Shown piece by piece: positions 1,843 through 42,245 of a stretch of DNA of 64,000 nucleotides (within the stretch, counting starts at the first letter, position 1; each line of letters starts with the position of its first letter). The notes beneath the pieces are model-generated. The model saw only the letters and a program-made list of their open reading frames with translations, did no database searches and was not told the DNA's origin. Source of the stretch: Candidatus Magasanikbacteria bacterium RIFCSPHIGHO2_01_FULL_33_34. GTDB lineage: Bacteria > Patescibacteriota > Patescibacteriia > Magasanikbacterales > UBA922. The stretch spans positions 122,102 to 186,101 of the forward strand of contig MFPS01000009.1 in the NCBI GenBank assembly GCA_001782825.1. Reading direction: 5' to 3'. Made by a program: the position numbers and the translations under genes.

Positions 1843-3153
1843 GTGATAATTATCACTTTTGCTGAACTCTCTATGACCTCAAGATTATTTAAATTAATAA
1901 AATCAAAAGAATTTTTAGTTTTTATAATTGCTTTTTTTATCATCACCATCTTCCAAACCAATTTTATTACCGATCTATCAGCTTCACGCATAATGACTAT
2001 TCAAGCCTTGATTGAACACAATACTTTTGCTATTGATGATATTGAATTTTTTAAAACTATAGACAAAATTTACTACAATGGTCATTTTTATTCTTCCAAA
2101 CCACCTTTTATATCCATAATTGGCGCTGGCGCATATTTTTTGTATAGATTATTTACTGGCAATGAATTTGGTCTACCTGCCTACTTTGTAATAAAATTGT
2201 TTACCGTTATTTTACCATTTTCCCTACTCCTTCTCTTCTTCTACAAATCACTTCAATGGCAAGACATACCAAAAACTATCAGATTTATTATTCCATTCTT
2301 ACTTGGTTTTGCGACAATTTTATTTCCTTATTCTGTAATATTACAAAACCATACAATGTCTACTTTTTTAATTTTCTTGAGCTTTTACTGCATACTAAAA
2401 AATAAATTAAATGGTTACAAAAAATATTTAATTTTTTTGTCAGGCCTATTTGCCTCATTATCTGTCACAACAGAATTTGTTCAATCATCATTAATTCTCT
2501 TTGTATTTTCCCTTTATTTAATTTTTACTTTGAAACAAAAAAGTGATATAAAATGGTTTTTGTTAGGATGCGCGCCAATCGCTATTTTATATATTATCTA
2601 CAATTTACATACAAACGGTTCATTTTTACCACCCTACGCAAATTTTGATTCTCTTTATGGTTATGAAGATTCCTATTGGAAAAATCCTACTGGCATTGAT
2701 GCCTATGATCACCCAAAATGGTTATACTTTTTTAATATTCTTTTTGGCACCCATGGTTTATTCATCTATAGTCCTATTCTTATTTTTGGTTTTATTGGGC
2801 TATACAAAACTATCAAAGACAAGACCAATCAATTACATGATATTGCCATAATGCTTGGTGCGTCTATTGTCCTTGTAATATTTATGATCGGTTTTTTTAC
2901 CTACAACTATGGTGGCACCACATTTGGTATGCGTTGGCTTATTATTATCTACCCATTAATCATGTTTTTTATGGCAACCACCATTTCAAAAATTAAAAAA
3001 CCGCAGTATATTATAATTTTGTCTTTTATAATCATATTGAGCATATTATTAAATTACTCTGGTATGCACCACAAATGGTTTTTAACCGAATTTACAATAA
3101 ATGGTATTCAAATGGCCTCTCCACTGCTGGATATTATTAGAATTAATTTTTAA
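1843..3153 (+). CDS. GT-C fold integral-membrane glycosyltransferase (ArnT/PMT/YkcB-like)
   Basis: 436 aa, about 11 TM helices. First-loop acidic motif AIDDIEF and a SSKPPF (KPP) motif characteristic of GT39/GT83-type enzymes. Immediately follows the GT2 gene, as in GtrB/GtrC or YkcC/YkcB pairs. Confidence 0.6.
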   Translation: MIIITFAELSMTSRLFKLIKSKEFLVFIIAFFIITIFQTNFITDLSASRIMTIQALIEHNTFAIDDIEFFKTIDKIYYNGHFYSSKPPFISIIGAGAYFLYRLFTGNEFGLPAYFVIKLFTVILPFSLLLLFFYKSLQWQDIPKTIRFIIPFLLGFATILFPYSVILQNHTMSTFLIFLSFYCILKNKLNGYKKYLIFLSGLFASLSVTTEFVQSSLILFVFSLYLIFTLKQKSDIKWFLLGCAPIAILYIIYNLHTNGSFLPPYANFDSLYGYEDSYWKNPTGIDAYDHPKWLYFFNILFGTHGLFIYSPILIFGFIGLYKTIKDKTNQLHDIAIMLGASIVLVIFMIGFFTYNYGGTTFGMRWLIIIYPLIMFFMATTISKIKKPQYIIILSFIIILSILLNYSGMHHKWFLTEFTINGIQMASPLLDIIRINF

Positions 3154-3243
3154 TTTATTACCATTGAAAAAACTATCGCAAAATGATATTCTATAATAAC
3201 TTATATAAAAAATATAGAATTAATTATAGTATAACAAAAGTTT

Positions 3244-3356
3244 GATAATTATCTTTTTTACGGATTTGGTTGTCACAACAGACAACCACCTCGGAGCCAC
3301 AGCGAGAATCCTGCCTGCCGGCAGGCAGGGAGTAAAAACAAATAATTGAAATTAAT
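3244..3356 (+). repeat. Nested-hairpin repeat element, copy 1 (carries an extra GC-rich perfect palindrome CCTGCCTGCCGGCAGGCAGG)
   Basis: Shares the core ACGGATTTGGTTG(t/c)CACAACAG(a/g)CAACCACCTCGGAGCCACAGCGAGAAT...GAGTAAAAACAAATAATT with copies at 19461, 22513 and 23930, flanked by long inverted repeats. Confidence 0.7.
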
Positions 3357-3405
3357 GAAATCATGATTGAAAATATAAACAAAACTATTCTAGTTTACAA
3401 ATCAT

Positions 3406-19340: not shown

Positions 19341-19460
19341 AAATAATATGAATAAAAGAAATACCGAGACTACCTAAGCATTTCTAAATGAATTAAATTT
19401 ATATCGAAACATATCTATTATTTTATTTATAAAAATTAATAATATTATTTATAATCAAGC

Positions 19461-19560
19461 ATTAGTTCTAATTATTTGTTTTTACGGATTTGGTTGCCAC
19501 AACAGGCAACCACCTCGGAGCCACAGCGAGAATGAGTAAAAACAAATAATTAGAACTAAT
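19461..19560 (+). repeat. Nested-hairpin repeat element, copy 2
   Basis: 25-bp perfect terminal inverted repeat ATTAGTTCTAATTATTTGTTTTTAC/GTAAAAACAAATAATTAGAACTAAT enclosing the conserved core. Confidence 0.7.
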
Positions 19561-19591
19561 ATAATCATGATCTAAAGTATAAATAACACTA

Positions 19592-22462
19592 TTATACCTC
19601 ACATTTTACTTTTAACTTTAATTTTTTTTGATTTATTTCCACTTCTTCTTCACCTTCACCTATTTCAACATTATCCGCACTCACTTGCTTTTTGATTTCA
19701 TCTGCAAATTCATCAAAAACAGCCTTAATCTCCTCATCTTCTGTTTCATACAAAATACTTACCTTAATTTCCCGTGTCAAACCTTTTTCTTTACGGATTT
19801 GATTTATTGCCCGTACTACTTCACGAACCAATCCTTCTTTTATTAATTCTTCTGATAACTGTGTATCCAATTCAATTTTCTCACCAAACAAAACTTCTTT
19901 TACATTTACTTCATCTGCAATTATATTCTTTAATCCATCTGGAAAATCTTTGTCTATAACCAATTTTTGCAATGGTTGCCTTACTTTTATTTTGGCCTCT
20001 TTTCTCAAAAATAAACTCTCTTCTACAATTTTTCTAGCTTCATTCATTTGAATTAAAACTTCTTCACCAACATAATCATCATTTATTTCTGGCCAATTTT
20101 CCAAATGCACACTAGTCTCTCCACTATTCAAATCCATAAATATTTTCTCAGAAACAAATGGAGTAAACGGCGCCATTACTTTTGACAAAGTTAATAAAAC
20201 TTCTTTGAGCGTAGCCAGAGCAAATTGCTTATCCTTTTCATCATCACCCTTAAATCTATCTCGACTCCTGCGCACATACCACTGCGACAGCTCCAAAATA
20301 AAATCCATAATCGGACGACTTGCCTCTGCCAGTTTGTAAGCCTTCATATTATCAGTTACTTCACGAACTAACTCTTGTTGTTTTGCTAATATCCAAGTGT
20401 CCAATATATTTTCTGACTTACCCACGTCTATTTCTTTTGCATCAACCTCAAACATTTTGTAAAAAGAATAAACATTCCAAAGTGTATTCACAACTTTATT
20501 ATACACATCACGCACAGCTGATTCTGAAAATCGCAAATCTTCTGCATACATAACTGGTGAAGATACCAAATAATACCTCATAGCATCAGCACCATATTTT
20601 TCAAGCATTTCATTTGGATCCGGATAATTTTTCAACCTCTTACTCATCTTTTTGCCATCTTCTGCCAAAACTATGCCGTTTACTATTACATTTTTGAAAG
20701 CACCGCTAGTTTTTTCTTTTGGAATTGACGACTCACTCCCGATTGTAAGAGCAGTTGCAAGCACATGAAGTGTATAAAACCAACCACGAGTTTGATCTTG
20801 ACCTTCGGCAATAAATTCTGATGGAAAACCGGCTTCAAATTTAGCTTTATTTTCAAATGGATAATGCATTTGTGCATATGGCATAGAACCAGATTCAAAC
20901 CAACAATCCAAAACTTCTGGAATTCTAGTATATTTCTTTCCATTTTTTTCTATGACTATATTATCAACAATATGCTTGTGTAAATCTGTTATTTTCTGTC
21001 CTGACAATTCTTCCAACTCTTTTACATTACCAATACAAAATACATCACCATCATCACTTTTCCATATTGGTAATGGAGTACCCCAAAAACGATTGCGAGA
21101 AATTGCCCAATCGCGTGCACCTTCCAACCATTTACCAAACCGACCTTCTTTCAAATGTTCTGGCACCCAGCTTATATCATGATTATTATTCACCAAATCA
21201 TCTTTCAAATCAGTGACCCGAACAAACCAAGATGAAGTCGCATAATTTAAAAGCGGAGTATCGCAACGCCAACAATGTGGATAGCTATGTTCATATTTTG
21301 CCTTACTAAACAATTTGTTATTATGCGCTAGCCATTTGATAATTTCTACATCAGTCTTAGTTATATCTTCTTTTGGCTTAACCTCAAACCCTGCAAAATC
21401 CGTAACTTCATTTGTAAATAATCCATCCATTGTCACATGTTGCACCCAACCAATCTTTTCTTTTTGACCAACTTCATAATCGTCATTACCAAATGCAGGG
21501 GCAATATGGACAATACCAGTTCCATTTTCAACCGTTACAAAATCAGCCGACACAACTTTAAAGGCATTTTCTGTATTTGCAAAATATGGAAACAATGGCT
21601 CATACTCTAAACCTACCAAATCTTTATTGTTAATTTTTTGTACAACTTCAAACTCTTTTTCCTTAAACACTTCCTGCAATCTTTCTTTTGCAACCACAAA
21701 ATTTTCATTTTCAAATCTGACCACCATATATTCAATATCTCCACCAACCGCAAGTGCAACATTTCCTGGCAAAGTCCAAGGTGTTGTCGTCCAAGCGAGT
21801 ACATACACATCGCCATCAACCCCCAACTTTTCTTTGGCATTCTTTAATTTAAATTTGGCTGTTGCAGACAAATCTTTCACATCTTTATATCCTTGAGTCA
21901 CTTCAAAATTTGAAAGTGGTGTAACACAGCGAGGGCAAATATGCATTGCCTTATAACCTTCATAAATCAAACCTTTATTAAACAATTCTTTAAAGACCCA
22001 CCACACACTCTCCATATACTCAATATCCATTGTCTTATACGAATGCTCCATATCTACCCATCTACCCATTCGCTCTACAGTCTTGCGCCATTCTTCTGTA
22101 TATTTCAAAACCGCAACTCGGCAAGCTTCATTAAACTTATCAACCCCCAATTTTTCAATATCTTTTTTACTATTAAGCTTGAGATCACTTTCAATAATAT
22201 TTTCAACTGGCAATCCATGACAATCCCAACCCCATACCCGCTCTACCCGATAACCCTGCATAGTCCAATATCTAGGTACTACATCTTTCATAAGACCTGC
22301 AACAATATGACCATAATGAGGCAAACCAGTCGCAAATGGAGGCCCATCATAAAAAACATACGGCTTATTCTCTGGCCGTTCATTAACAGATTTTTCAAAT
22401 GTTTTGTCTTTTTTCCAAAACTCTAGTATCTCACTCTCTTGTTCATTTGCATTATATGGCAT
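19592..22462 (-). CDS. ileS: Isoleucine--tRNA ligase (type 2)
   Basis: 956 aa. N-terminus FYDGPPFATGLPHYGH (HIGH) and KMSKRL (KMSKS). Type-2 IleS N-terminal signature. Confidence 0.95.
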   Translation of the reverse strand: MPYNANEQESEILEFWKKDKTFEKSVNERPENKPYVFYDGPPFATGLPHYGHIVAGLMKDVVPRYWTMQGYRVERVWGWDCHGLPVENIIESDLKLNSKKDIEKLGVDKFNEACRVAVLKYTEEWRKTVERMGRWVDMEHSYKTMDIEYMESVWWVFKELFNKGLIYEGYKAMHICPRCVTPLSNFEVTQGYKDVKDLSATAKFKLKNAKEKLGVDGDVYVLAWTTTPWTLPGNVALAVGGDIEYMVVRFENENFVVAKERLQEVFKEKEFEVVQKINNKDLVGLEYEPLFPYFANTENAFKVVSADFVTVENGTGIVHIAPAFGNDDYEVGQKEKIGWVQHVTMDGLFTNEVTDFAGFEVKPKEDITKTDVEIIKWLAHNNKLFSKAKYEHSYPHCWRCDTPLLNYATSSWFVRVTDLKDDLVNNNHDISWVPEHLKEGRFGKWLEGARDWAISRNRFWGTPLPIWKSDDGDVFCIGNVKELEELSGQKITDLHKHIVDNIVIEKNGKKYTRIPEVLDCWFESGSMPYAQMHYPFENKAKFEAGFPSEFIAEGQDQTRGWFYTLHVLATALTIGSESSIPKEKTSGAFKNVIVNGIVLAEDGKKMSKRLKNYPDPNEMLEKYGADAMRYYLVSSPVMYAEDLRFSESAVRDVYNKVVNTLWNVYSFYKMFEVDAKEIDVGKSENILDTWILAKQQELVREVTDNMKAYKLAEASRPIMDFILELSQWYVRRSRDRFKGDDEKDKQFALATLKEVLLTLSKVMAPFTPFVSEKIFMDLNSGETSVHLENWPEINDDYVGEEVLIQMNEARKIVEESLFLRKEAKIKVRQPLQKLVIDKDFPDGLKNIIADEVNVKEVLFGEKIELDTQLSEELIKEGLVREVVRAINQIRKEKGLTREIKVSILYETEDEEIKAVFDEFADEIKKQVSADNVEIGEGEEEVEINQKKLKLKVKCEV

Positions 22463-22512
22463 AAAATAATCACTAAGGTATAAAAATTGAAATCATCATT
22501 TATAATTAAGTA

Positions 22513-22608
22513 TTAATTTCAATTATTTGTTTTTACGGATTTGATGCTCCAATAAGCATCACCCTCGGAGCCAAAGCGAGAATGAGTAAAAACAAATAAT
22601 TGAAATTA
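22513..22608 (+). repeat. Nested-hairpin repeat element, copy 3
   Basis: 24-bp perfect inverted repeat TTAATTTCAATTATTTGTTTTTAC/GTAAAAACAAATAATTGAAATTAA. Inner hairpin GATGCT-CCAATAA-GCATC shows compensatory changes relative to GGTTGCC-ACAACA-GGCAACC in copy 2. Confidence 0.7.
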
Positions 22609-22714
22609 ATACAATCTTGGTCAAAAATATAAACAACACTGTCTTATCTTACAATCAAGAAATTTGCCTAATTATAGGCACAAGTATAAACTACTATACA
22701 AAAGAAATGCAGGA

Positions 22715-22743
22715 TTGTAAAGACCAGCCTCACATGTTATAAT
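22715..22743 (+). promoter_or_regulatory. Sigma70-type promoter for rpiB
   Basis: TTGTAA, 17 nt, TATAAT, 23 nt upstream of the ATG. Confidence 0.5.
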
Positions 22744-22765
22744 TTTATTACATTAATATAAACTT

Positions 22766-23221
22766 ATGTATACAGGATTATTATATATTGCCTCAGACCA
22801 TGCTGGTTATGGCCTCAAAAAAAGACTAATTAGATATATAAACAACGAACTAAACCTCAAGGTAGAAGATATGGGAGCCAAGCAATACGATGAAAACGAT
22901 GACTTTCCTGACTTTATATTACCCGCTACCCAAAAAGCAGTTGCTAACAATGGCCGAGTCATCGTTATTGGTGGTAGCGGAAACGGTGAAGCCATAGCCG
23001 CAAACAAAGTAACCGGCATGCGTTGTATCTTGGCCCACAGTATAGAAACAGCCCAACTAGGTAGAACTCACAACAATGCCAATGGCATTGCTTTTGGTGC
23101 ACGCATTATAACAGAAGAACACGCCATGGCTATGCTAAAAATATGGCTAGAAACAGAATTTCTAGGTGGTAAATATGAACTACGCAATATAAAAATAAAA
23201 CAATTTGAAGAAAAAAAATAA
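22766..23221 (+). CDS. rpiB: Ribose-5-phosphate isomerase B
   Basis: 151 aa. N-terminus LYIASDHAGYGLKKRL. RpiB/LacAB fold. Confidence 0.9.
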   Translation: MYTGLLYIASDHAGYGLKKRLIRYINNELNLKVEDMGAKQYDENDDFPDFILPATQKAVANNGRVIVIGGSGNGEAIAANKVTGMRCILAHSIETAQLGRTHNNANGIAFGARIITEEHAMAMLKIWLETEFLGGKYELRNIKIKQFEEKK

Positions 23222-23870
23222 TATGCCAAAAATTATACCTTCACTACTTGTCACAAATGAAACAGATTTTGAATCACAAATAAAATCTGTGACAGGACTC
23301 GTTGATATGATACAAGTTGACTTAGCTGATGGTAAATTTGTACCCAACACCACTTGGCCTTATCAAGAACCACAAAAAGCACAAAAACATCTTGAAAATA
23401 TTGATTTTGAACTACATCTCATGGTTGAAGAACCACTAAAGATCATAAAACAATGGATCAATCACAAACGACTCAAACGCATTTTAGTTCATATTGAATC
23501 AACCAATGATATAGAATCAATACTTTCAGAAATAAAAATGTTCCATAAAGAAGCTGGGATAGTCCTCAATCCAACTACCTCTATATATGATGCAGAACCA
23601 TACTTTGACAAAATAGACTCTCTAATGCTAATGGGTGTCAAACCTGGTTTTCAAGGACAAGCTTTTATACCAAGCACAATAGATAAAATCAAAAAAGTAA
23701 AAGAAATTAATAAAAATGTATTTATTGAAATTGATGGAGGTGTAAACAAACTGACAATTACCCAGATTGCTAGAGCTGGAGCTGATGTAATTTGCCCTGG
23801 CAGTGCAGTTTTTAAAGGAGATAATATAGAAAATAATATAACAGACTTAACTAATTTACTCACAGCTTAA
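23205..23870 (+). CDS. rpe: Ribulose-phosphate 3-epimerase
   Basis: IIPSLL..VDLADGKFVPN, HLMV, and a C-terminal GxDGG motif. An alternative start is at 23223. Confidence 0.85.
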   Translation: MKKKNNMPKIIPSLLVTNETDFESQIKSVTGLVDMIQVDLADGKFVPNTTWPYQEPQKAQKHLENIDFELHLMVEEPLKIIKQWINHKRLKRILVHIESTNDIESILSEIKMFHKEAGIVLNPTTSIYDAEPYFDKIDSLMLMGVKPGFQGQAFIPSTIDKIKKVKEINKNVFIEIDGGVNKLTITQIARAGADVICPGSAVFKGDNIENNITDLTNLLTA

Positions 23871-23929
23871 TTAAAATTTACTTAATTAATAACTTGTTAG
23901 AAAAACTAATGTTATTTATAAAATAATAA

Positions 23930-24027
23930 AAGTCTGATAATTATATTTTTTACGGATTTGGTTGCTACAACAAACAACCACCTCGGAGTCCAAACGAGAA
24001 TGAGTAAAAAATATAATTATCAGACTT
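23930..24027 (+). repeat. Nested-hairpin repeat element, copy 4
   Basis: 24-bp perfect inverted repeat AAGTCTGATAATTATATTTTTTAC/GTAAAAAATATAATTATCAGACTT. The stem sequence differs from the other copies, but pairing is preserved. Confidence 0.7.
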
Positions 24028-24087
24028 TACTACCAAAAAACAATACAAATAACATTACAAAATCTTACAAATAACTTAATAAATATT

Positions 24088-25032
24088 ATGTACGACCTAG
24101 TCATTATAGGCGCTTCAGCAGCCTCATTTCCAGCAGCCATTTACTCAGCCCGCAGACATCTAAATTTTGTAATGGTCACCAAAGATATCGGTGGCGAATT
24201 AGCTTTGTCTGGATCAGTAAACAATTGGCCTGGAGTAATTGAGACCAATGGATATGAATTGGCCAAACAAATGCACGAACACGCAAAATCATATGGAACA
24301 CAAATTGATGAAGGTATAGAAGTACAAGAAATAAAGCAAAATGGCAAAACTCATACCGTGATTGCAAAAGATGCCGTTGGTAAAGAAAAAATATATGAAA
24401 CAAAATCTATCATAATAGCCAGTGGAATTCATCCTCGTGAACTTGGAATTGAAGGAGAAGACAAATTCAGAGGAAAAGGGGTTACTTATTGTACAGTCTG
24501 CGATGGTCCATTATTCAAAGGAAAAACAACCGCTACGATTGGCTCAGGAAATTCAGCCTTAGAATCAGCTTTGATGATGGCTGGCATTGCTGAAAAAGTC
24601 TATATTGTAACCAAATACACAGAGAGTAATATGGGAGGATTTCCAAGAGGCGAATCTATTCTTGTAAAAAAATTAAAAGAACTTAAAAATGTAGAAATCC
24701 TATACAATACAGACACAAGAGAAATACAAGGAGAGAATATGGTAAACAAAATCATAGTGGCCGATAATGAAAGTGGTGAAATCAAAGACATAACTGTACA
24801 AGGCGTAATGGTTCATATTGGTATGATACCAAATAGTGATTTTGTTGAATGTGTTAAAAAAAATAAACAAAAAGAAATTGAAGTAGACCTAAAATGCGAA
24901 ACCTCTGTTGCTGGCATTTTTGCTGCTGGAGACGTTACCAATATACCTTATAAACAAATTGTCATTGCCGCTGGTCAAGGAGTAACCGCTGCCTTATCAG
25001 CTATTGATTATCTTAATAAGTTTGATGAATAA
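24088..25032 (+). CDS. trxB: Thioredoxin-disulfide reductase
   Basis: 314 aa. FAD-binding motif, redox-active CTVCDG (the CATC-equivalent), and NADPH-binding GSGNSALE. Confidence 0.85.
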   Translation: MYDLVIIGASAASFPAAIYSARRHLNFVMVTKDIGGELALSGSVNNWPGVIETNGYELAKQMHEHAKSYGTQIDEGIEVQEIKQNGKTHTVIAKDAVGKEKIYETKSIIIASGIHPRELGIEGEDKFRGKGVTYCTVCDGPLFKGKTTATIGSGNSALESALMMAGIAEKVYIVTKYTESNMGGFPRGESILVKKLKELKNVEILYNTDTREIQGENMVNKIIVADNESGEIKDITVQGVMVHIGMIPNSDFVECVKKNKQKEIEVDLKCETSVAGIFAAGDVTNIPYKQIVIAAGQGVTAALSAIDYLNKFDE

Positions 25033-32560: not shown

Positions 32561-33058
32561 CTAAAGTCCACGAGAACAGCTACTAACAGTCCCTCCAGAT
32601 GCTATACAAGCATCATACTCACTCGTTCCAATATCATAATCAAAATAAGCTGGTGGCTTATCCTGCGTAGCATTAAGTGCTACACTAGAAACTAAAGCCA
32701 AAATTGAATAAGCACTCATAATTACAAAAATACCGATTATACCCGTACGCAAAGTGCTCTTGCCTTTTTTTACTTTTTCCTCATCCCCTGCCGAAGACAT
32801 TATCAAATATCCAGCATAAACAGAATACGCAAAAAACATTATACCAATCATCCCTAACAAAAATTTTACCAACTGAGCCACGACAATCCTTGGATCAGTT
32901 GGAATAGTATCTCCTGCGCCAGACTTATTTGCAAAAGTTTTTAATTGTTGAGTAAAATCCTGAGCATTAACTTTTGCAAAATCAACAAAACTGTAGCCTA
33001 AAAATAAAATAGTTATCAATATATATAATGTTAAAAAATTTTTTTTATGTTTTTTCAT
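32561..33058 (-). CDS. VirB2/TrbC-like (T4SS-pilin-like) small secreted protein, paralog 1
   Basis: 165 aa. Signal peptide then the two-helix module ...VYAGYLIMSSAGDEEKVKKGKSTLRTGIIGIFVIMSAYSIL, followed by a short Cys-containing tail. Confidence 0.65.
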   Translation of the reverse strand: MKKHKKNFLTLYILITILFLGYSFVDFAKVNAQDFTQQLKTFANKSGAGDTIPTDPRIVVAQLVKFLLGMIGIMFFAYSVYAGYLIMSSAGDEEKVKKGKSTLRTGIIGIFVIMSAYSILALVSSVALNATQDKPPAYFDYDIGTSEYDACIASGGTVSSCSRGL

Positions 33059-33064
33059 ATAAAA

Positions 33065-33526
33065 TTATCCAGCAAAATCATCCCAACAACTTTCATCTTC
33101 CAGACAATCAAAGCGATCAGAACTTTGAGGTTCTTGAACAGCTTTCTGTAAACCTGAAGCAACAAAACTAGTGATTGCATAGGACAAAACTACTATAAAC
33201 AGTCCTATTACTGCACCACGCATTGTAGCTGATGCTTTTTCAATCTTTTCTGATCTACCACGAGCAATTATAAACCAATATGATGCCATCGCAATCAATA
33301 TAATAAAAATTGAGCCAATAAACCCTAAAAATATCTTTATAACTGAAGCTATGGTAACTTGAGGTGCGACCGCATCAGTATAACCTGCACTAGTCTTGCC
33401 AGCATTCAATTGGCCAAGTACTTTATCATTTAAACTTCCAGCTTGAACAACATTTGTAAATAATAAAGTACTTACAAATAAAATGACTATACTAAATATA
33501 AATTTATATACACTTTTTTGTTGCAT
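33065..33526 (-). CDS. VirB2/TrbC-like small secreted protein, paralog 2
   Basis: Start moved to MQQKSVYKF (ATG at 33526) to remove the overlap. Module ASYWFIIARGRSEKIEKASATMRGAVIGLFIVVLSYAIT, with a Cys-containing acidic tail. Confidence 0.6.
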   Translation of the reverse strand: MQQKSVYKFIFSIVILFVSTLLFTNVVQAGSLNDKVLGQLNAGKTSAGYTDAVAPQVTIASVIKIFLGFIGSIFIILIAMASYWFIIARGRSEKIEKASATMRGAVIGLFIVVLSYAITSFVASGLQKAVQEPQSSDRFDCLEDESCWDDFAG

Positions 33527-33530
33527 AATA

Positions 33531-33947
33531 TTAAAGCGATTCCTCAGATGGCGCAGTTTCAAGCAAAATCCTTGGAACAATAAAGAATGTAATACTGTAT
33601 GCACTAACAGCAATCACCAAACCAATCACTGAAGCGCGAATTATATTTTTTGCTTTATCAACTTGCGCTTCTTCACCACGGGCAGTCATCCAAAGAAAAC
33701 CAGCATAAACTGTCAAACTCATAAATATGATACCAGAAAATGACATCAATATTTTTACAACCGTACCCAATGTAGCTGCAAAAGTTGTTTCACTAGTATT
33801 TTCATCATATTGAGCAGCTTTGGCAGCATCACGTAAAAGTGAATTTGAATTAGATGAAGTTCCAAAACCAATATTTGGTTGAGCAAAAATAACTGTCGGT
33901 ACAAAAATTAAACTTAATAAAGTTATAAAAAATAATATTTTTTTCAT
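33531..33947 (-). CDS. VirB2/TrbC-like small secreted protein, paralog 3
   Basis: 138 aa. Signal peptide VIFAQ. Module VYAGFLWMTARGEEAQVDKAKNIIRASVIGLVIAVSAYSIT. Confidence 0.65.
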   Translation of the reverse strand: MKKILFFITLLSLIFVPTVIFAQPNIGFGTSSNSNSLLRDAAKAAQYDENTSETTFAATLGTVVKILMSFSGIIFMSLTVYAGFLWMTARGEEAQVDKAKNIIRASVIGLVIAVSAYSITFFIVPRILLETAPSEESL

Positions 33948-33956
33948 AAATATATG

Positions 33957-34340
33957 TTATTTATTTAAAGCCCCAGCTACCAGGAAAGTAATAGCATAAG
34001 CCGACAATACAAGCACAAGTCCAATAACAGTTCCTTTTATAATTGATTTTGCTTTGTTAACTTGATCTTCTTCACCCCTAGCTGTCATCCACAAAAATCC
34101 AGCATATACCATAAGCAACAAAAACATAAGACCAACCATAGACAATGCTACATTTATAACTCGTCCACTAATAGTCCCCAAACTATCAGATGCTTCAAAT
34201 CCAGCTTGACCACGAACAGTTTCCAAAGGACTATTTGTACCACCAAAAGCATTCTTAAGACCTTGGGCAGAAACAATTTGTGGTAAAACTACACTACTCA
34301 ATAAAACTATTATTATAATTATTTTTTTTATTGAAAACAT
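33957..34340 (-). CDS. VirB2/TrbC-like small secreted protein, paralog 4
   Basis: 127 aa. Signal peptide IVSAQ. Module VYAGFLWMTARGEEDQVNKAKSIIKGTVIGLVLVLSAYAIT. Confidence 0.65.
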   Translation of the reverse strand: MFSIKKIIIIIVLLSSVVLPQIVSAQGLKNAFGGTNSPLETVRGQAGFEASDSLGTISGRVINVALSMVGLMFLLLMVYAGFLWMTARGEEDQVNKAKSIIKGTVIGLVLVLSAYAITFLVAGALNK

Positions 34341-34348
34341 ATATATAA

Positions 34349-34717
34349 TTAATTTTCTAAAACGCCACCCAATAAAACTGTGATTGCATAAGATGCCAGC
34401 ACTACAATCAAACCTATTATAGCAGCAATTACAGTATTTTTTGCTTTCTTAATTTTATCCTCACTACCACTTGCCATCATCCAACTAAAACCTCCATAAA
34501 AAACCAAAATAAAAAATAATAAACCAACCGCAGTCAAACTTCCTTTTATCATACTACCAAATGTTCCACTAACACTCTCATTGGTAATACCTGCTTTCCC
34601 GGCTACTTTACCTAAATTACCACTAGCACTATTCAATGTGTATGCTGTTGCAAAATCTGCTTGAAAAAAAGAACACAAAATTATGATAAAACAAATATTT
34701 CTTAAAAATTTCTTCAT
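34349..34717 (-). CDS. VirB2/TrbC-like small secreted protein, paralog 5
   Basis: 122 aa. Module FYGGFSWMMASGSEDKIKKAKNTVIAAIIGLIVVLASYAIT. Confidence 0.65.
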   Translation of the reverse strand: MKKFLRNICFIIILCSFFQADFATAYTLNSASGNLGKVAGKAGITNESVSGTFGSMIKGSLTAVGLLFFILVFYGGFSWMMASGSEDKIKKAKNTVIAAIIGLIVVLASYAITVLLGGVLEN

Positions 34718-34733
34718 AAAAATTTACTAGCTA

Positions 34734-35228
34734 CTACGGACAAGCGCAAAACAAACCTCCAGAATTATTATCAACACAAGCTCTACCACCACATTCTGCT
34801 GATGAAGCTGATACTGTAGTACAAGGCTCAGTTGTTACACAACTACTATTTTGTGGTGTAGGCTCAGTAGTAGGTTCTCCACTAATAGCTCTAAATACAA
34901 AAGTAGTTATCGCATACGAGGCTACCACAATAATCAAACCAATCACAGCGGCCTTGATAGTACCCAATGCTTTATCAGTTTGCTGTTCATTACCACGAGC
35001 TATCATCCAAATAACACCACCATATATCATCAATAACAAAAATAATACACCAACCATAGTTAAGGCTGCCCCGACAACACTCCCAATAATATCTACTGGT
35101 GAGCTACCAGATACCGCCCCTTTCAAGCCTGAAACATCGGCAGTTTTGTCTAAACCATAATTTGCATAAACAGTTCCAGTACCAAATAAAGAAACAATGA
35201 TTGATAAAGTGATAATTATTTTTTTCAT
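34734..35228 (-). CDS. VirB2/TrbC-like small secreted protein, paralog 6, with Cys-rich C-terminal tail
   Basis: 164 aa. Module IYGGVIWMIARGNEQQTDKALGTIKAAVIGLIIVVASYAIT, then a tail with 6 Cys. Confidence 0.65.
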   Translation of the reverse strand: MKKIIITLSIIVSLFGTGTVYANYGLDKTADVSGLKGAVSGSSPVDIIGSVVGAALTMVGVLFLLLMIYGGVIWMIARGNEQQTDKALGTIKAAVIGLIIVVASYAITTFVFRAISGEPTTEPTPQNSSCVTTEPCTTVSASSAECGGRACVDNNSGGLFCACP

Positions 35229-35236
35229 AAATTTTA

Positions 35237-35857
35237 TTACTTAGGGATACAACAGACATTATCTGTCCCACCAGTACAATAACCAACCAAGGCTGTACCA
35301 GATACACAATCTGATGGATTACTACATTCAAATCTATCTCCACACTGGCTCGTACATAAACTATCATCATTTGAAATACACACATTTGCAGTTGGACTAC
35401 AAGATACAAGACTTGTACCAAAATCACATGGCTCAGTATCACTACAAGCAACCACCGTCAAACCATCTAGTCTATTTACACACTGTACAGAAGCACCAAT
35501 AGAACGAAAGATTAATCCTACAATCACATAAGAACCTAATACAATCACCAAACCAATTACTGCTGAAACGATTGTTTTGGTAGCTTTATCTGTTTGTTGT
35601 TCATTTCCTCTAGCCGTCATCCATATTATACCACCATATATAGTCAAAAGAAAGAATATAACACTTACAAAAGCAAGCGCTCCACCTATTACTTTTCCAA
35701 TCACTTCACTAGGAGTTCCAACATTCATTGATTTTGCAGAAGCTACCGACTTCAATCCATACTCACTATTTGATTGCGCATATATTGAATCTACAGATAC
35801 CAAAAAAAATCCGATGGCTGAAAAAAAAATAATTATCAAAATAATTAATTTTTTCAT
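35237..35857 (-). CDS. VirB2/TrbC-like small secreted protein, paralog 7, with long Cys-rich C-terminal extension
   Basis: 206 aa. Module IYGGIIWMTARGNEQQTDKATKTIVSAVIGLVIVLGSYVIV, then a roughly 90-aa Cys-rich domain. Confidence 0.65.
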   Translation of the reverse strand: MKKLIILIIIFFSAIGFFLVSVDSIYAQSNSEYGLKSVASAKSMNVGTPSEVIGKVIGGALAFVSVIFFLLTIYGGIIWMTARGNEQQTDKATKTIVSAVIGLVIVLGSYVIVGLIFRSIGASVQCVNRLDGLTVVACSDTEPCDFGTSLVSCSPTANVCISNDDSLCTSQCGDRFECSNPSDCVSGTALVGYCTGGTDNVCCIPK

Positions 35858-35858
35858 A

Positions 35859-36254
35859 TTAAAAATAATAAAAAAAGCCTCTGTGCGTCGCTTGAAATAA
35901 ACTCTTCAAAACAAAGCTAGTAATTGCATACGAACTCATTATTATTGCCAATCCGATAGAAGCTCCCCAAATAATTTTTTTGGCTTTATTTACTTTTTCA
36001 TCATTTCCCATAGATGTCATCCATAAAAAGCCAGCATACAACATCAAAACCATTGTTCCAATTCCAAGAAACCCTAAAACAGTCTGAATTATAGAACCAA
36101 TACTATATCTAATATCCCTATTTTCAAGTCCAGAATACCGAGCATAATTAACACCCAATAAATCATCTTCTGTAGCTACAACTGGACTAATAACAAAAAA
36201 TCCTAGTGATATAAAAAATAATAGGGAAAAAATAATGTATCTTTTTTTTTGCAT
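35859..36254 (-). CDS. VirB2/TrbC-like small secreted protein, paralog 8
   Basis: Start at MQKKRYII (36254). Module LYAGFLWMTSMGNDEKVNKAKKIIWGASIGLAIIMSSYAIT. Confidence 0.6.
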   Translation of the reverse strand: MQKKRYIIFSLLFFISLGFFVISPVVATEDDLLGVNYARYSGLENRDIRYSIGSIIQTVLGFLGIGTMVLMLYAGFLWMTSMGNDEKVNKAKKIIWGASIGLAIIMSSYAITSFVLKSLFQATHRGFFYYF

Positions 36255-36295
36255 ATAAAATATTTGTTTATACAAACAAATGTTTGCATATATAA

Positions 36296-36356
36296 ACAAA
36301 TAGGGCAGGGCTCCTAAAGCAAGGTTTTTCCCTTACATCAGGGGCCCTGCCCTTTA
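36296..36356 (-). terminator. GC-rich hairpin terminator after pilin-like paralog 9
   Basis: On the coding strand: GGGCAGGGCCCC...GGAGCCCTGCCC followed by a T-rich run. A strongly GC-rich stem in an AT-rich background. Confidence 0.6.
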
Positions 36357-36368
36357 ATAATTTGTTTC

Positions 36369-36764
36369 TTATGTTCCGTATCCAGTTGCTGTTCCAAGTT
36401 GTACAAGTACAAAACTTGAAATTGCGTAAGCACTCAAGATAACTGCAAGACCTACAACACCAGCGATGATGATTTTTCTAGCTTCACCAACTCCTTCATC
36501 GTTACCACCAGCTGTCATCCATTTAAAACCACCGTAAAGTACTATTACTAAAGCGATTATACCTAAAAGGCTGAGAGCTACATTGATAATAGAAGCAATT
36601 GTTGTTCTTAAATCTTGATTTCCAAGACGACTAACAGTACCGTAAGTCAAACCAAAATCAGCTTCAATAGAACCAGCTAATGCAGCTGGGGCCAAAGCCA
36701 AACTAAATACCATTGCAGCTAAAACTGAAAGTCCTACCTTGTATTTTAGAATTTTCGATAACAT
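36369..36764 (-). CDS. VirB2/TrbC-like small secreted protein, paralog 9 (candidate major subunit)
   Basis: 131 aa. Module LYGGFKWMTAGGNDEGVGEARKIIIAGVVGLAVILSAYAIS. The only gene here with a strong SD (GGAGGTGA, 7 nt before the ATG), plus a strong terminator. Confidence 0.7.
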   Translation of the reverse strand: MLSKILKYKVGLSVLAAMVFSLALAPAALAGSIEADFGLTYGTVSRLGNQDLRTTIASIINVALSLLGIIALVIVLYGGFKWMTAGGNDEGVGEARKIIIAGVVGLAVILSAYAISSFVLVQLGTATGYGT

Positions 36765-36891
36765 ATTCTCACCTCCCTTCCTATTATAGATTCATTTTTC
36801 ATAGTTAAATTATACTACAAATACTTTAATTAAACAACATTAGTGTGGATAATAATTTAACTATACAATCCTACTTAAAAAATTTTATTTT

Positions 36892-37281
36892 TTATGTGCC
36901 ATAACCAGTTGCGCTACCCAGACTAGTCAATACAAAACTAGAAATTGCATAAGCACTCAAAACTATTGCCAATCCAACTACACCAGCTATAATCGCTTTT
37001 CTACCTTGACCCGCTTGTTCATCATTACCACCAGACACCATCATCTGAAAACCACCATATAATACACCCACTAATGCCAATATACCTAAAAGTCCCAAAA
37101 TAACATTAATAATTGAAGCAATCGTTGAACGCACATCTTGATTCCCCAGACGACTAACAGTACCATAAGTCAAACCAAAATCTTCTTCAATAGAACCAGC
37201 TAACACAGTTGGTGTTAAAACTAAACTAAATATTACCAAAATTAAAGTCGCAAATATATTTAATTTTATTTTTTTATTCAT
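36892..37281 (-). CDS. VirB2/TrbC-like small secreted protein, paralog 10 (near-duplicate of paralog 9)
   Basis: 129 aa. Near-identical to paralog 9 over most of its length (AGSIEEDFGLTYGTVSRLGNQDVRSTIASIINV...). No SD. Confidence 0.65.
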   Translation of the reverse strand: MNKKIKLNIFATLILVIFSLVLTPTVLAGSIEEDFGLTYGTVSRLGNQDVRSTIASIINVILGLLGILALVGVLYGGFQMMVSGGNDEQAGQGRKAIIAGVVGLAIVLSAYAISSFVLTSLGSATGYGT

Positions 37282-37298
37282 AACATTTTTAATAAAAA

Positions 37299-37685
37299 TT
37301 ATTTGGCTATGACCCCAATTAATGCGCTTAAAATTGCATACGAAGAAAATATCACAAGAATACCTATGGTTGCATAAAGCATTGTCTTGGTACCTTTATC
37401 AACTCTCTGTTCATTTCCTGCAGAAGTGAGCCATAAAAATCCACCAATAACAAAAACTATCAACGTTACTGATCCCAAAATTCCTAAACTAGTATCTATT
37501 ATTTTCTTTATCAAAGGATTAATAACCGTACCATCTTCACCGGTAACCATCTCTCCCAAAGGATTTTGTAATCTTGATACACCACTACTATCTTCTTGGG
37601 CATTAACAGATACTGAACCATACACACCCAAAAACATAAAAGAAAAAATCATATAGCCTATTATATATTTTTTGAATATTTTCAT
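37299..37685 (-). CDS. VirB2/TrbC-like small secreted protein, paralog 11
   Basis: Start at MKIFKKYII (37685). Module VIGGFLWLTSAGNEQRVDKGTKTMLYATIGILVIFSSYAIL. Confidence 0.6.
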   Translation of the reverse strand: MKIFKKYIIGYMIFSFMFLGVYGSVSVNAQEDSSGVSRLQNPLGEMVTGEDGTVINPLIKKIIDTSLGILGSVTLIVFVIGGFLWLTSAGNEQRVDKGTKTMLYATIGILVIFSSYAILSALIGVIAK

Positions 37686-37692
37686 AAAAAAT

Positions 37693-38514
37693 TTATTTAA
37701 ATACATTTAATCTATCTGATACACCAAGCACATCAAGCAAAAAACCAACTATAAAATAACCAGCAAAGACTATTACCATACCAATCACTGACGCCACCAA
37801 AACATTTTGTCCTTGTTTGAAACGCTCTGCATTACCAAATGACAATACCATTAAACCACCACCAAAAACAAAGAAAGCAAAAACAATTGCGCCTATATAT
37901 TTGAATATACTACCAGCTGCATTTGAAACAATGACCACTATATCATTTGGGCTATTACAAGTACCCAATTTTGCGCATTTTGGCAATGTTCCTAATATGC
38001 CAGCTTTAAAATCATAATCATATACATTATCCAAATATTGCAAGGCTTCACTATAACAAGTCTCAGCATCTTCATTCCATTTACAAACATCACTTACAAT
38101 ACAATCTGTCTTTTTTTGCATATATGAACAATCCGAATTGGAAAATCTAGATAAACAACTACCATCTGTTGTAAAAAAACAACCAGATCTACGTATACAA
38201 AGATTTTTAGGCAAATCATTGCAGGTAACACAGTAATTTTCTGTACAAGATACACCCACTTCAACTCTATAAAAAGACTGGTCAACATACTTTATCAATG
38301 TATCACAAGGCAATACCTCCATATCATCGCGTCTACAACCAACTGGTTTCAAACTACTCTGGCTCGGTTCTGTACCTTCTGATATTAAACAGCAACCTAT
38401 AGATTCAGCTTTTAATTCTTGAGGACTAAATATAATTGCAACAAAAAAAACCAAAAACACAAAGCTAAATTTTTGTATTTTATGAATAAATTTTTTTTTA
38501 TTGATAAATAACAT
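37693..38514 (-). CDS. Cys-rich ectodomain protein with C-terminal VirB2-like two-helix anchor (subfamily A)
   Basis: 273 aa. Signal peptide, then a roughly 170-aa domain with about 20 Cys, then IGAIVFAFFVFGGGLMVLSFGNAERFKQGQNVLVASVIGMVIVFAGYFIV. Confidence 0.6.
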   Translation of the reverse strand: MLFINKKKFIHKIQKFSFVFLVFFVAIIFSPQELKAESIGCCLISEGTEPSQSSLKPVGCRRDDMEVLPCDTLIKYVDQSFYRVEVGVSCTENYCVTCNDLPKNLCIRRSGCFFTTDGSCLSRFSNSDCSYMQKKTDCIVSDVCKWNEDAETCYSEALQYLDNVYDYDFKAGILGTLPKCAKLGTCNSPNDIVVIVSNAAGSIFKYIGAIVFAFFVFGGGLMVLSFGNAERFKQGQNVLVASVIGMVIVFAGYFIVGFLLDVLGVSDRLNVFK

Positions 38515-39908: not shown

Positions 39909-41201
39909 TTATACAAATAAACCAAATATAAATTTAAGTATAACATAACTAGACAAAATTACTACGACACCCAAAGATGACCAAGTCATCATTTTCAAAG
40001 CTTTACTAGTTTTCTCAGAATTCCCTCTAGCAGTCATCCACATAAATCCACTACCAACAAACATAGCGAGCGCCACACTGCCAGTGAAACCTAATATATA
40101 TTCTATAATCTTACCAACCAAAGTTTGAATCTGTTCTGTTTTGGTCCCAGAACCCAATTTTAGTTTATTGAGATTAGCAATACTATCTCCAACATCACAA
40201 CCCAACAACCCCGGTCTTTCACCTGTCTTTGGGCAAAGGCCTTCACATTCACGTGCTATATATTCTCTACATTTTGTTAAGGCTTCTCCAGTACCTTCTC
40301 CTTCTTTTTTACATACTTCATCAATTTGTGTCTGATCTTCACAAAAACTTAACACAGGTTTATCTTCAACCGCTTCTAATACAGTTTTGCAAGTAACATC
40401 AAACCAAAAATCTGGAAATAATTGATCAGAAAAATTAACTAAACCACATTTATCATAAGTAAAATTTGTTTGTATCCATTCTTTATCAAGACATTTTTTT
40501 TCTTCAACTGGCTGTTCTACTAGTGTTGGTATACCACAAAAACCATGACCATCTTCAGTAAAACTTAATTCACAATTAACTTGATTGACAGATCCACCAC
40601 AACCAAAACCCCCTTCATCATCTGTATTAATAAAACTACAATTAGCATTTGGAATTATTCTGATTACTCGTGTAGGTATTGGTTGGAATGCTAGTGGACC
40701 AATCCCAGGGGTAGTAGGCATACTACCAAGTATAGGACTACAATTGTCCTTAAACAGTCCCTCATCAAACGTATAACCACCAATTGTACTGGCAAACTCT
40801 CTAACAAATTTTTGTATTGCTTCAGTAAAACTAAAACAAGCAAAGCCACTTTCTGGAAATGCAATACTACCCAAATTTCCTGCAAGCGCACGATAACCAG
40901 ATGCCTCAAGATTCCTACGAACCCCATGACATGACGGGCAATCATCAGTACTTATACCAGTCGGAGGGACTTGCATATTTCTTATACTGATACTACAGCT
41001 ACATTGCCCAGCATCAGTCTTACTTCTGACAACCACTGCTTCTCCCAAAGAAGTAGTATATTCAGGTGGTGTAGCAGATTGAAAATTAGCGCATTGTTGA
41101 TTGGTCTGCGCATTAACTTTTACTCCAAAAAATAATCCTGTTATCAAAGAAGTAAAAAATAATATAGTAATAAATATTTTTTTTGAAAAAAATATACTCA
41201 T
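39909..41201 (-). CDS. Cys-rich ectodomain protein with C-terminal VirB2-like two-helix anchor (subfamily B)
   Basis: Start at MSIFFSKK (41201). About 30 Cys in the ectodomain. C-terminus GSVALAMFVGSGFMWMTARGNSEKTSKALKMMTWSSLGVVVILSSYVIL. Confidence 0.6.
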   Translation of the reverse strand: MSIFFSKKIFITILFFTSLITGLFFGVKVNAQTNQQCANFQSATPPEYTTSLGEAVVVRSKTDAGQCSCSISIRNMQVPPTGISTDDCPSCHGVRRNLEASGYRALAGNLGSIAFPESGFACFSFTEAIQKFVREFASTIGGYTFDEGLFKDNCSPILGSMPTTPGIGPLAFQPIPTRVIRIIPNANCSFINTDDEGGFGCGGSVNQVNCELSFTEDGHGFCGIPTLVEQPVEEKKCLDKEWIQTNFTYDKCGLVNFSDQLFPDFWFDVTCKTVLEAVEDKPVLSFCEDQTQIDEVCKKEGEGTGEALTKCREYIARECEGLCPKTGERPGLLGCDVGDSIANLNKLKLGSGTKTEQIQTLVGKIIEYILGFTGSVALAMFVGSGFMWMTARGNSEKTSKALKMMTWSSLGVVVILSSYVILKFIFGLFV

Positions 41202-41205
41202 AAAT

Positions 41206-42240: not shown

Positions 42241-42245
42241 AAAAA

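What the first reader, a model, noticed from the sequence alone, without database searches (positions are those of the whole stretch)
3244..3356. Four-copy nested-hairpin element whose stems co-vary between copies: candidate novel structured RNA or REP-like element
Copies at 3244-3356, 19461-19560, 22513-22608 and 23930-24027 are all in the same orientation and all intergenic. Each has a 24-25-bp perfect outer inverted repeat whose sequence differs between copies but always pairs. The outer stem encloses a conserved ACGGATTTG, an inner 7-bp hairpin (GGTTGCC-ACAACA-GGCAACC / GATGCT-CCAATAA-GCATC / GGTTGCT-ACAACA-AACAACC), and a conserved unpaired CACCTCGGAGCCACAGCGAGAATGA segment. Copy 1 additionally carries a nested GC-rich perfect palindrome CCTGCCTGCCGGCAGGCAGG. 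Copies 1-3 share a further 3' extension (AATCATGATTGAAAATATAAACAAAACTATTC). The element lies both upstream and downstream of genes on either strand, so it is not a simple 5' leader.
Basis: seen in the sequence. Interest (0 to 1): 0.8.

Follow-up and report, generated by a model that had tools for sequence, protein, structure and literature searches.

The report
Mobile hairpin repeat with conserved core
The four "nested hairpins" are the inner parts of a previously undescribed 175-200 bp miniature transposon in a Candidate Phyla Radiation (CPR) bacterium; its central three-way-junction motif is better conserved than its own ends, so it is probably a functional folded RNA or single-stranded DNA module of unknown role.

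Summary
Each copy is the centre of a 175-198 bp unit. The unit has 26-bp terminal inverted repeats (TGTAAGA...GTTRTTTATA), a linker, a long stem P1 and a ~50-nt core. The core holds hairpin P2, an invariant mini-hairpin P3 and conserved unpaired bases. Flanking 7-8 bp direct repeats are significant (permutation p about 6e-5).

The host is a Candidatus Magasanikbacteria (CPR) genome from the Rifle aquifer. Four relatives keep the same gene order but have short spacers and no copy. A second Magasanikbacteria-like organism (45% GC) carries the same family and shows a filled/empty allele pair. Element ends supply the stop codons of ileS, grpE and hsp20.

The covariation is confirmed. Copies 2-4 have perfect 25-27 bp P1 stems with different sequences, and P2 covaries. 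Copy 1 is a chimera whose stem is broken. The 34 core bases outside P2 are identical between organisms, although stems and termini diverged.

Nothing matches in Rfam, and no transposase gene lies in the held DNA. Best reading: a new MITE-type element carrying a selected structured core. The core's function, the active strand and the partner transposase remain unknown.

The parts
3202..3399 (+). Copy 1, whole unit (198 nt). Chimeric: the left arm is like copy 4, the core like copy 2 and the right arm like copy 3. The right end lies 7 nt before the pfkB ATG.
3310..3329 (+). 20-nt perfect GC palindrome CCTGCCTGCCGGCAGGCAGG, inserted between P3 and the 3' arm of P1 in copy 1 only.
19428..19603 (+). 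Copy 2, whole unit (176 nt), between pepA and ileS. The right end supplies ileS codons C-E-V and the stop codon.
19421..19427 (.). Copy 2, left target-site duplication TTTTATT. Its partner is TTTTACT at 19604-19610.
19604..19610 (.). Copy 2, right target-site duplication TTTTACT. Keeping one copy restores ...KKLKLKVK-TAA, the C-terminus seen in relatives.
19428..19453 (+). Copy 2, left 26-bp terminal inverted repeat TATAAAAATTAATAATATTATTTATA.
19578..19603 (-). Copy 2, right 26-bp terminal inverted repeat (reverse complement TGTGAGGTATAATAGTGTTATTTATA).
19461..19485 (+). Copy 2, P1 5' arm. It forms a 25-bp perfect stem with 19536-19560.
19486..19535 (+). Copy 2 core: GGAUUU, then P2 (8 bp, 6-nt loop), then P3 (CUCG..CGAG, 9-nt loop), then AAUGA. 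It folds as a three-way junction.
19536..19560 (+). Copy 2, P1 3' arm.
22479..22653 (+). Copy 3, whole unit (175 nt), in the divergent ileS/rpiB spacer. P1 is 27 bp perfect (22510-22536 with 22586-22612). The core is 22537-22585. The TIRs are 22479-22504 and 22628-22653.
23895..24069 (+). Copy 4, whole unit (175 nt), between rpe and trxB. P1 is 25 bp perfect (23929-23953 with 24004-24028). The core is 23954-24003. The TIRs are 23895-23920 and 24044-24069.
23888..23894 (.). Copy 4, left target-site duplication AATAACT (7 of 7 match with 24070-24076).
24070..24076 (.). Copy 4, right target-site duplication AATAACT.

Best explanation
The four copies are insertions of a non-autonomous miniature inverted-repeat transposable element (MITE), 155-200 bp long and without coding capacity.

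**Architecture.** A 26-bp terminal inverted repeat (5'-TGTAAGA...RYGTTRTTTATA) sits at each end. Inside are a short linker, a 22-27 bp stem P1 and a ~50-nt core. The whole unit can fold end to end into one long hairpin.

**Mobility (shown).** The unit is mobile. It duplicates 7-8 bp of an AT-rich target (about AATAAYT). That target often sits at a stop codon, and the TIR then supplies a new TAA or TAG.

**Transposase (inferred).** A DDE-type transposase encoded elsewhere recognises the TIRs and makes a staggered cut.

**Core (shown).** The core forms a three-way junction whose helices P1 and P2 covary. Its 34 unpaired and P3 bases stay identical between two organisms, although the stems and even the TIRs have diverged.

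**Core (inferred).** The core is a cis-acting module that works as a folded single strand and is recognised sequence-specifically by a protein. Lineages that lose it stop propagating. A uniform orientation relative to the replication-type GC skew favours a role on single-stranded DNA or at the replication fork. An RNA role in read-through transcripts would see either strand, depending on the copy.
For: - **Termini.** The same 26-nt module is found at both ends of copies in both organisms.
- **Target-site duplications.** Flanks match at 7/7 positions for copy 4, L012 and L024a, and 6/7 for copy 2. Over nine copies 49 of 63 positions match, against 3.5 of 7 for cross pairs; permutation p is about 6e-5.
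- **Empty site.** The hsp20-dnaK spacer is filled in L024, L050 and L055 and empty in L012 and L054. The empty allele carries one AATTATTT and the filled allele two.
- **Synteny.** Four Magasanikbacteria relatives (IleRS 74-82% identical) keep the gene order. Their spacers are 115-184, 40-145 (477 in L042) and 55-85 nt, against 303, 251 and 217 nt in the window. The difference is about one element.
- **Absence elsewhere.** The covariance model R1 finds no copy in the ~113 kb of IleRS-anchored loci or in the three relatives' loci among the further ~47 kb of DnaK-anchored loci.
- **Restored gene ends.** Removing copy 2 plus one TSD restores the IleRS C-terminus seen in relatives. The same logic applies to grpE in L012.
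- **No coding capacity.** No conserved ORF crosses the element.
- **Orientation to genes.** Copies lie in either orientation relative to neighbouring genes.
- **Structure.** Fold z-scores are -8 to -10. P1 is perfect in copies 2-4, and 17 of 25 P1 positions show at least two Watson-Crick pair types. Covariation exceeds all shuffle and slide controls.
- **Core conservation.** Copy 3 and the second organism are identical at all 34 core positions outside P2.
- **Orientation to replication.** The GC-skew component is negative in element orientation at all testable loci.
Against: - No transposase gene lies in the 64-kb window or in any fetched locus. No longer element sharing the TIR was found.
- One copy (L024a) has a perfect duplication but no right TIR. 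That is awkward for a strict two-ended DDE mechanism.
- The TSD length (7, 8 or 9 bp) cannot be fixed in this AT-rich sequence. Three of nine copies show only 4 of 7 matches.
- A plain MITE should conserve its ends best, but here the centre is the most conserved part.
- Perfect yet mutually different P1 stems in one genome need either selection on pairing or arm-to-arm conversion. Neither was shown.
- Only two host organisms and nine independent copies are available.
- There are no expression data.
Confidence: 0.7

Rival explanations
1. A family of stand-alone small structured RNA genes. Each ~100-nt hairpin RNA would be transcribed from its own promoter and would act in trans or in cis. It would have multiplied by duplication rather than transposition.
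For: - The core shows the classic RNA signature of covarying helices and invariant loops.
- A sigma-70-like match (TTTATA-18-TATAAT) lies in the left arm of copy 2.
- An extra hairpin is tolerated at a junction in copy 1.
Against: - The element has terminal inverted repeats, target-site duplications, filled and empty alleles, and is absent at syntenic sites.
- The promoter-like sequence is part of an inverted repeat present on both arms, and it is not conserved in the second organism.
- No terminator follows.
- Promoter-like hits are common in this AT-rich DNA: 36 found against 22 expected.
- There is no Rfam match.
Confidence: 0.08
2. A hairpin element mobilised as single-stranded DNA by an HUH/Y1 transposase, of the REPIN-RAYT or IS200/IS605 'PATE' type. 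The folded core and stems would be what the enzyme recognises on the lagging-strand template.
For: - The whole unit folds into a long hairpin with compensatory changes, as described for REPINs (PMC3116915).
- The conserved unpaired bases and the covarying short hairpin P2 point to recognition of a folded single strand.
- All seven testable insertions share one orientation relative to the replication-type GC skew, p about 0.02.
- One copy lacks a TIR yet inserted.
Against: - Flanking 7-8 bp duplications and an empty site holding a single copy of the repeat are not produced by Y1/HUH transposition.
- In REPINs the conserved parts are the two terminal REPs and the centre is variable. Here it is the reverse.
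- There is no fixed tetranucleotide at the left flank.
- No Y1 transposase lies in the held DNA.
Confidence: 0.12
3. The pairing is not selected. The perfect arms would be kept by arm-to-arm gene conversion or template switching within a palindrome. The 'core' would be conserved only because the copies are young or were recently transferred between the two organisms.
For: - The two host organisms occur in the same aquifer sample, Ga0209541.
- Copies in the second organism are nearly identical to each other and carry uncompensated single mismatches.
- Wobble-type mismatches favour opposite strands in the two organisms: 14 A.C against 3 G.T in the window organism, and 4 against 9 in the second organism.
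Against: - Recent transfer cannot explain 34 of 34 identity in the core next to almost complete divergence of P1, P2 and the TIRs.
- P2 is only 7-8 bp and lies inside the asymmetric core, yet it shows several compensated changes. Arm conversion of the large palindrome would not produce these.
Confidence: 0.07

Closest known systems
Bacterial MITEs with long hairpin-forming arms, such as the Correia elements of Neisseria and the BOX/RUP elements of pneumococcus (from my own knowledge)
   Same: - Short, non-coding and multi-copy.
- Has terminal inverted repeats and a target-site duplication.
- Inserts in intergenic DNA next to gene ends.
- The whole unit folds into a long hairpin in a transcript.
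- Depends on a transposase supplied in trans.
   Different: - The best-conserved part here is a central asymmetric ~50-nt three-way junction, not the ends.
- The stems differ between copies of one genome yet stay perfect.
- The host is a CPR bacterium with a ~1.2-Mb genome.
- The termini (TGTAAGA) and the 7-8 bp duplication differ from Correia, which has a TA duplication.
REPINs (REP doublets forming hairpins) mobilised by RAYT transposases (PMC3116915)
   Same: - About 100-nt extragenic hairpin-forming repeats.
- Compensatory changes on the two sides of the hairpin.
- Non-autonomous.
   Different: - REPINs have two conserved terminal REP sequences and a variable spacer, and no target-site duplication. 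They are linked to a single-copy Y1 transposase.
- This element has a conserved centre, 26-bp TIRs and 7-8 bp duplications. No RAYT was seen.
Ends of IS66-family insertion sequences: 20-30 bp IR starting GTAAGCG, 8-bp direct repeats (PMC11946415; PMC12898284)
   Same: - The TIR is 25-26 bp and reads (T)GTAAGA...
- The flanking duplication is compatible with 8 bp in copy 2 and L024a.
   Different: - Only GTAAG is shared.
- The best overall fit is a 7-bp duplication with TGT...ACA termini. From my own knowledge, that equally recalls IS481, IS3 or Tn7-like ends.
- No IS66 transposase (TnpC) was found or could be searched for.

Membership tests
MITE (non-autonomous TIR transposon) | Short (under ~300 bp) with no coding capacity | tested here: met
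   Units are 142-198 nt. All six reading frames are broken or not conserved between copies.
MITE (non-autonomous TIR transposon) | Terminal inverted repeats | tested here: met
   A 26-nt module, TGTAAGA..GTTRTTTATA, is present at both ends in both organisms. It is missing at the right end of L024a.
MITE (non-autonomous TIR transposon) | Target-site duplication | tested here: met
   49 of 63 flank positions match, against 3.5 of 7 for cross pairs; permutation p is about 6e-5. The length is 7-8 bp and not resolved.
MITE (non-autonomous TIR transposon) | Insertion polymorphism or empty sites | tested here: met
   Filled alleles are L024, L050 and L055; empty alleles are L012 and L054. Copies are absent at syntenic spacers in L042-L046. 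The reconstructed ileS and grpE ends match relatives.
MITE (non-autonomous TIR transposon) | A cognate autonomous IS with the same TIRs, encoding the transposase | not testable with these tools
   None was found in the window or the fetched loci.
REP / REPIN-RAYT | Two conserved terminal REP palindromes around a variable spacer; no TIR or TSD | tested here: not met
   The conserved part is central, the arms vary, and a TSD is present. Features are compared with PMC3116915.
REP / REPIN-RAYT | A RAYT (Y1 transposase) gene in the genome | not testable with these tools
   No such gene was found among the window ORFs that were scanned. The rest of the genome was not available.
IS200/IS605-derived palindrome-associated elements | Different subterminal hairpins at the two ends; insertion 3' of a fixed tetra- or pentanucleotide; no duplication | tested here: not met
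   The ends are inverted repeats of each other. Left flanks vary, and a duplication is present.
IS66-family-derived element | IR of 20-30 bp starting GTAAGCG and an 8-bp direct repeat | tested here: inconclusive
   The IR is 25-26 bp and starts (T)GTAAGA. The duplication is 7 or 8 bp.
Any Rfam RNA family (ribozymes, riboswitches, sRNAs, tRNA-like RNAs, SRP RNA) | A match to a covariance model | tested here: not met
   At the gathering threshold the window gives only 4 tRNAs. At E up to 10 the region gives only chance plant-microRNA-type long-hairpin hits.
Intrinsic terminator | A GC-rich hairpin followed by a U tract | tested here: not met
   No terminator-like site was called at any copy, and no T run follows P1.
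Integron attC site | Conserved R''/R' core sites (RYYYAAC / GTTRRRY) at the stem base, with a variable centre | tested here: not met
   By direct reading, the stem bases read TTTTTAC/GTAAAAA and the centre is the conserved part. Neighbouring genes are housekeeping genes on both strands.

The most novel reading that the evidence does not exclude
The ~50-nt three-way-junction core is a new class of functional folded nucleic-acid motif. It could be a protein-binding or catalytic RNA, or a strand-specific single-stranded DNA recognition module. It rides as obligatory cargo inside a transposon of CPR bacteria. It would be under stronger purifying selection than the transposon's own ends, and would couple insertion to one replication strand.
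Probability: 0.3. Interest if true: 0.75.

Novelty: new variant of a known kind. Interest (0 to 1): 0.5.

Why it matters
- CPR/Patescibacteria genomes are tiny. In my literature searches no miniature transposon has been described for them. This is an active-looking MITE family with strain-level insertion polymorphism in Magasanikbacteria.
- The element rewrites the 3' ends of essential genes (ileS, grpE, hsp20).
- It probably fragments assemblies: contigs of the second organism never exceed 8 kb, and some end inside the element.
- The conservation pattern is inverted for a selfish DNA element. The ends diverge, the stems covary, and 34 core bases are frozen. That points to a structured module with a specific partner.
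- Identifying that partner could reveal either a new transposition cofactor or a new small RNA in a lineage where almost no non-coding RNAs are known.

Tried and rejected
- **Rfam.** The gathering search of the window and the permissive search of 19380-24130 gave only tRNAs and chance plant-microRNA-type long-hairpin hits.
- **GTDB genome scan** with GGATTTGN{12,28}CCTCGGAGNNNNNNCGAGAA gave 5 chance-level hits in unrelated GC-rich taxa.
- **Metagenome scan** gave true relatives in only one other organism; the other 23 loci were chance hits. It did not return the window organism, although a contig of it (L047) comes from the same JGI sample. Absence in these scans is therefore weak evidence.
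- **Spurious-ORF search.** A composite six-frame peptide query, meant to fish spurious ORFs crossing the element out of the protein database, found nothing. That search was wasted.
- **Other collections.** Two viral-contig scans and BLAST against plasmids and phages found nothing.
- **Weak model hit** in L051 (20 bits): by eye it is a T-rich coding stretch, not the element.
- **Motifs rejected by reading the junctions.**
  - Hammerhead: the junctions are 1, 1-2 and 0 nt, not CUGANGA / GAA / H.
  - K-turn, SRP Alu domain and tRNA-like fold.
  - Sigma-54 promoter: P2 covaries, so its sequence is not what is conserved.
  - attC site and intrinsic terminator.
- **SD-like GGAG plus AUG in the core.** The downstream peptides are not conserved (5, 24 and 14 aa).
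- **Choosing the functional strand from wobble pairs.** The two organisms point in opposite directions, so this was inconclusive.
- **Transposase search.** Pfam scans of 38 proteins, most from the window, found none. A TIR search over all loci found no additional ends.

Full report
**1. The observation**

All four copies are present on the + strand at the stated coordinates. The 21-nt core pattern is found 3 times at up to 3 mismatches, against 0.00 expected by chance; the more diverged fourth copy was seen directly and found by the covariance model. An alignment shows invariant TTTTTACGGATTTG, CCTCGGAG, CGAGAAT and GAGTAAAAA blocks.

The outer stem, measured base by base from the junction, is perfect in three copies:

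| Copy | Outer stem P1 |
|---|---|
| 2 | 25 bp perfect |
| 3 | 27 bp perfect |
| 4 | 25 bp perfect |
| 1 | 7 bp perfect, then 12 of 24 positions paired |

The 5' arm of copy 1 would pair 22/24 with the 3' arm of copy 4. The 3' arm of copy 1 pairs 24/24 with the 5' arm of copy 3. Copy 1 is therefore a chimera of two sub-lineages. It also carries a unique 20-nt GC palindrome at the joint.

**2. Structure**

Each unit folds far better than shuffles, with z-scores of -8.2, -9.1 and -10.2; the chimeric copy 1 gives -4.4. The apex is a three-way junction with these parts:
- P1, which continues into a 3-bp AUU/AAU helix above a GG/GA internal loop;
- P2, of 7-8 bp with a 6-nt loop;
- P3, CUCG/CGAG with a 9-nt loop.

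P2 changes with compensation between copies:
- GGTTGTC/GACAACC
- GGTTGCC/GGCAACC
- GATGCT/AGCATC
- TGTTTGGC/GCCAAACA in the second organism
- GGTTGCT/AACAACC, with one C.A mismatch

On an alignment fitted to my model, 10 of 24 pairs change on both sides. None of 500 shuffles reaches the observed values, and all slid controls are far lower. In P1, 17 of 25 positions show two or more Watson-Crick pair types. P3 never varies, so nothing supports or contradicts it.

**3. Host organism and relatives**

The window genes are housekeeping genes. Exact protein look-ups place the window in Rifle aquifer metagenomes, including a 1.17-Mb scaffold. The IleRS is annotated as Candidatus Magasanikbacteria, a CPR/Patescibacteria lineage.

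A GTDB-wide pattern scan gave only chance hits. A metagenome scan gave true relatives in one other organism. That organism has 45% GC, and its DnaK places it near Magasanikbacteria. Its contigs are never longer than 8 kb and sometimes end inside the element.

In that organism P1 has an entirely different sequence (AAGCCAATGGTTGTCCTTTTCGC / GCGAAAAGGACAACCATTGGCTT) yet still pairs, and P2 also differs and pairs. The 34 core bases outside P2 are identical to window copy 3.

**4. The element is larger than described, and it is mobile**

Conservation extends on both sides of the hairpin. Every arm ends in a 26-nt module, and the two ends are inverted repeats of each other. Examples:
- TGTAAGAATTACAAGCGTTGTTTATA
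- TGTAAGATAAGACAGTGTTGTTTATA
- TGTTAGAAAAACTAATGTTATTTATA
- TGTGAGGTATAATAGTGTTATTTATA

The whole unit of 155-198 nt folds end to end.

Flanking 7-mers match as follows:

| Copy | Flank match |
|---|---|
| Copy 4 | 7/7 |
| L012 | 7/7 |
| L024a | 7/7 |
| Copy 2 | 6/7 |
| Five other copies | 4-5 of 7 |

In total 49 of 63 positions match. Cross pairs match at 3.5 of 7 on average, and the permutation p is about 6e-5. The target consensus is roughly AATAAYT.

Further evidence of mobility:
- In the second organism the hsp20-dnaK spacer is filled in three contigs and empty in two. The empty allele has one copy of AATTATTT and the filled allele two.
- Four relatives of the window organism (IleRS 74-82% identical) keep the gene order. 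Their spacers are shorter by about one element, and my covariance model finds no copy in the ~113 kb of IleRS-anchored loci or in the three relatives' loci among the further ~47 kb of DnaK-anchored loci.
- Window IleRS ends ...KLKVK-CEV*. Relatives end at ...K*. The three extra codons and the stop codon lie in the right TIR of copy 2. Keeping one TSD copy restores KKLKLKVK-TAA.
- The same reconstruction works for grpE in L012. The hsp20 stop codon lies in the TSD of L024a.

Together these features define a MITE-type element.

**5. What it is not**

- It matches no Rfam family.
- It matches nothing in viral contigs, plasmids or phages.
- It has no conserved ORF.
- It has no terminator tail.
- It shows no consistent orientation relative to neighbouring genes: two copies are sense, five antisense and two lie in divergent spacers. 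It is therefore not a leader, and probably not a strand-specific RNA made by read-through.
- It does not fit REPIN/RAYT or IS200/IS605 elements. Those lack TIRs and TSDs, and they conserve their ends rather than their centre.
- The TIR start GTAAG and a duplication compatible with 8 bp recall the IS66 family. However, the best overall fit is 7 bp with TGT...ACA termini, so family assignment stays open.
- No transposase gene lies in the window or in any fetched locus. No other DNA carries the TIR.

**6. What remains odd**

- The core is more conserved than the ends.
- Copies 2-4 have perfect but mutually different stems. Copies in the second organism are near-identical to each other, yet each carries 1-2 uncompensated mismatches.
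- After separating the coding-strand effect, the replication-type GC-skew component is negative in element orientation at all testable loci: the window with four copies, plus three loci of the second organism. This is roughly p = 0.02. It hints at replication-coupled insertion or at function on one DNA strand.
- Wobble-type mismatches do not identify the active strand: 14 A.C against 3 G.T in the window organism, and 4 against 9 in the other.
- L024a inserted with a clean duplication but has no right TIR, only a terminal CA.

**7. Verdict**

This is a real and previously undescribed repeat family. It is best explained as a non-autonomous TIR transposon of Magasanikbacteria carrying a selected three-way-junction core.

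- **Shown:** the anatomy, the covariation, the mobility, the target duplication and the effects on gene ends.
- **Inferred:** a DDE transposase acting in trans, and a cis-acting, protein-recognised single-stranded core.
- **Unknown:** the partner transposase, whether the element is transcribed, the active strand and the core's function.

Noticed in passing
window 47517-47630 and 62446-62575: Two intergenic regions each carry an array of 8-nt units (ATTTAAAC ATTTAAGC ATATAAAC ATATAAAC). About 50 nt later comes the inverted array (ATATGTTT ATATGTTT GTATGTTT). They look like paired operator- or iteron-like arrays next to minus-strand genes.
   Followed up: partly
window 3310-3329: A perfect 20-nt GC-rich palindrome, CCTGCCTGCCGGCAGGCAGG, sits in a 32% GC genome. 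It is inserted exactly at the junction of the chimeric copy 1 and is found nowhere else in the window or in 53 loci. Its origin is unknown.
   Followed up: partly
window 19592-19610; L012 5620-5634; L024 3031-3038: Element ends rewrite gene 3' ends. IleRS gains C-E-V plus a stop codon from the right TIR. GrpE changes its last residue and takes a TAG from the TIR. The hsp20 stop codon lies in the duplicated target.
   Followed up: yes
window, whole; L011, L012, L014, L050, L055: Every testable insertion has the same orientation relative to the replication-type component of GC skew. The element's + strand lies on the C-rich strand.
   Followed up: partly
window 32561-37706 and 39909-43373: A tandem array of about a dozen small paralogous genes, followed by three larger genes that end in a T4SS_pilin domain (PF18895). 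Type IV pilus genes (PilB-like ATPase, PilC, PilM) lie at 49-53 kb.
   Followed up: partly
L047 (JGI Ga0209541_10000026) versus the scan: The metagenome pattern scan returned the second organism from sample Ga0209541. It did not return the window organism's own 247-kb contig from the same sample, which carries copy 1. The collection scans are therefore not exhaustive, or the source of the window is held out.
   Followed up: no
L045 17364-20762; L046 14566-14940: In relatives, gyrA carries an intein with a LAGLIDADG domain (L045). A bAvd / 23S_rRNA_IVP-type gene, as found in diversity-generating retroelements, sits between pepA and ruvA (L046).
   Followed up: no
window 1843-3153: A 436-aa ORF immediately upstream of copy 1 has no Pfam match even at E = 0.1. 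A strain variant (L048) has a 412-aa version.
   Followed up: no
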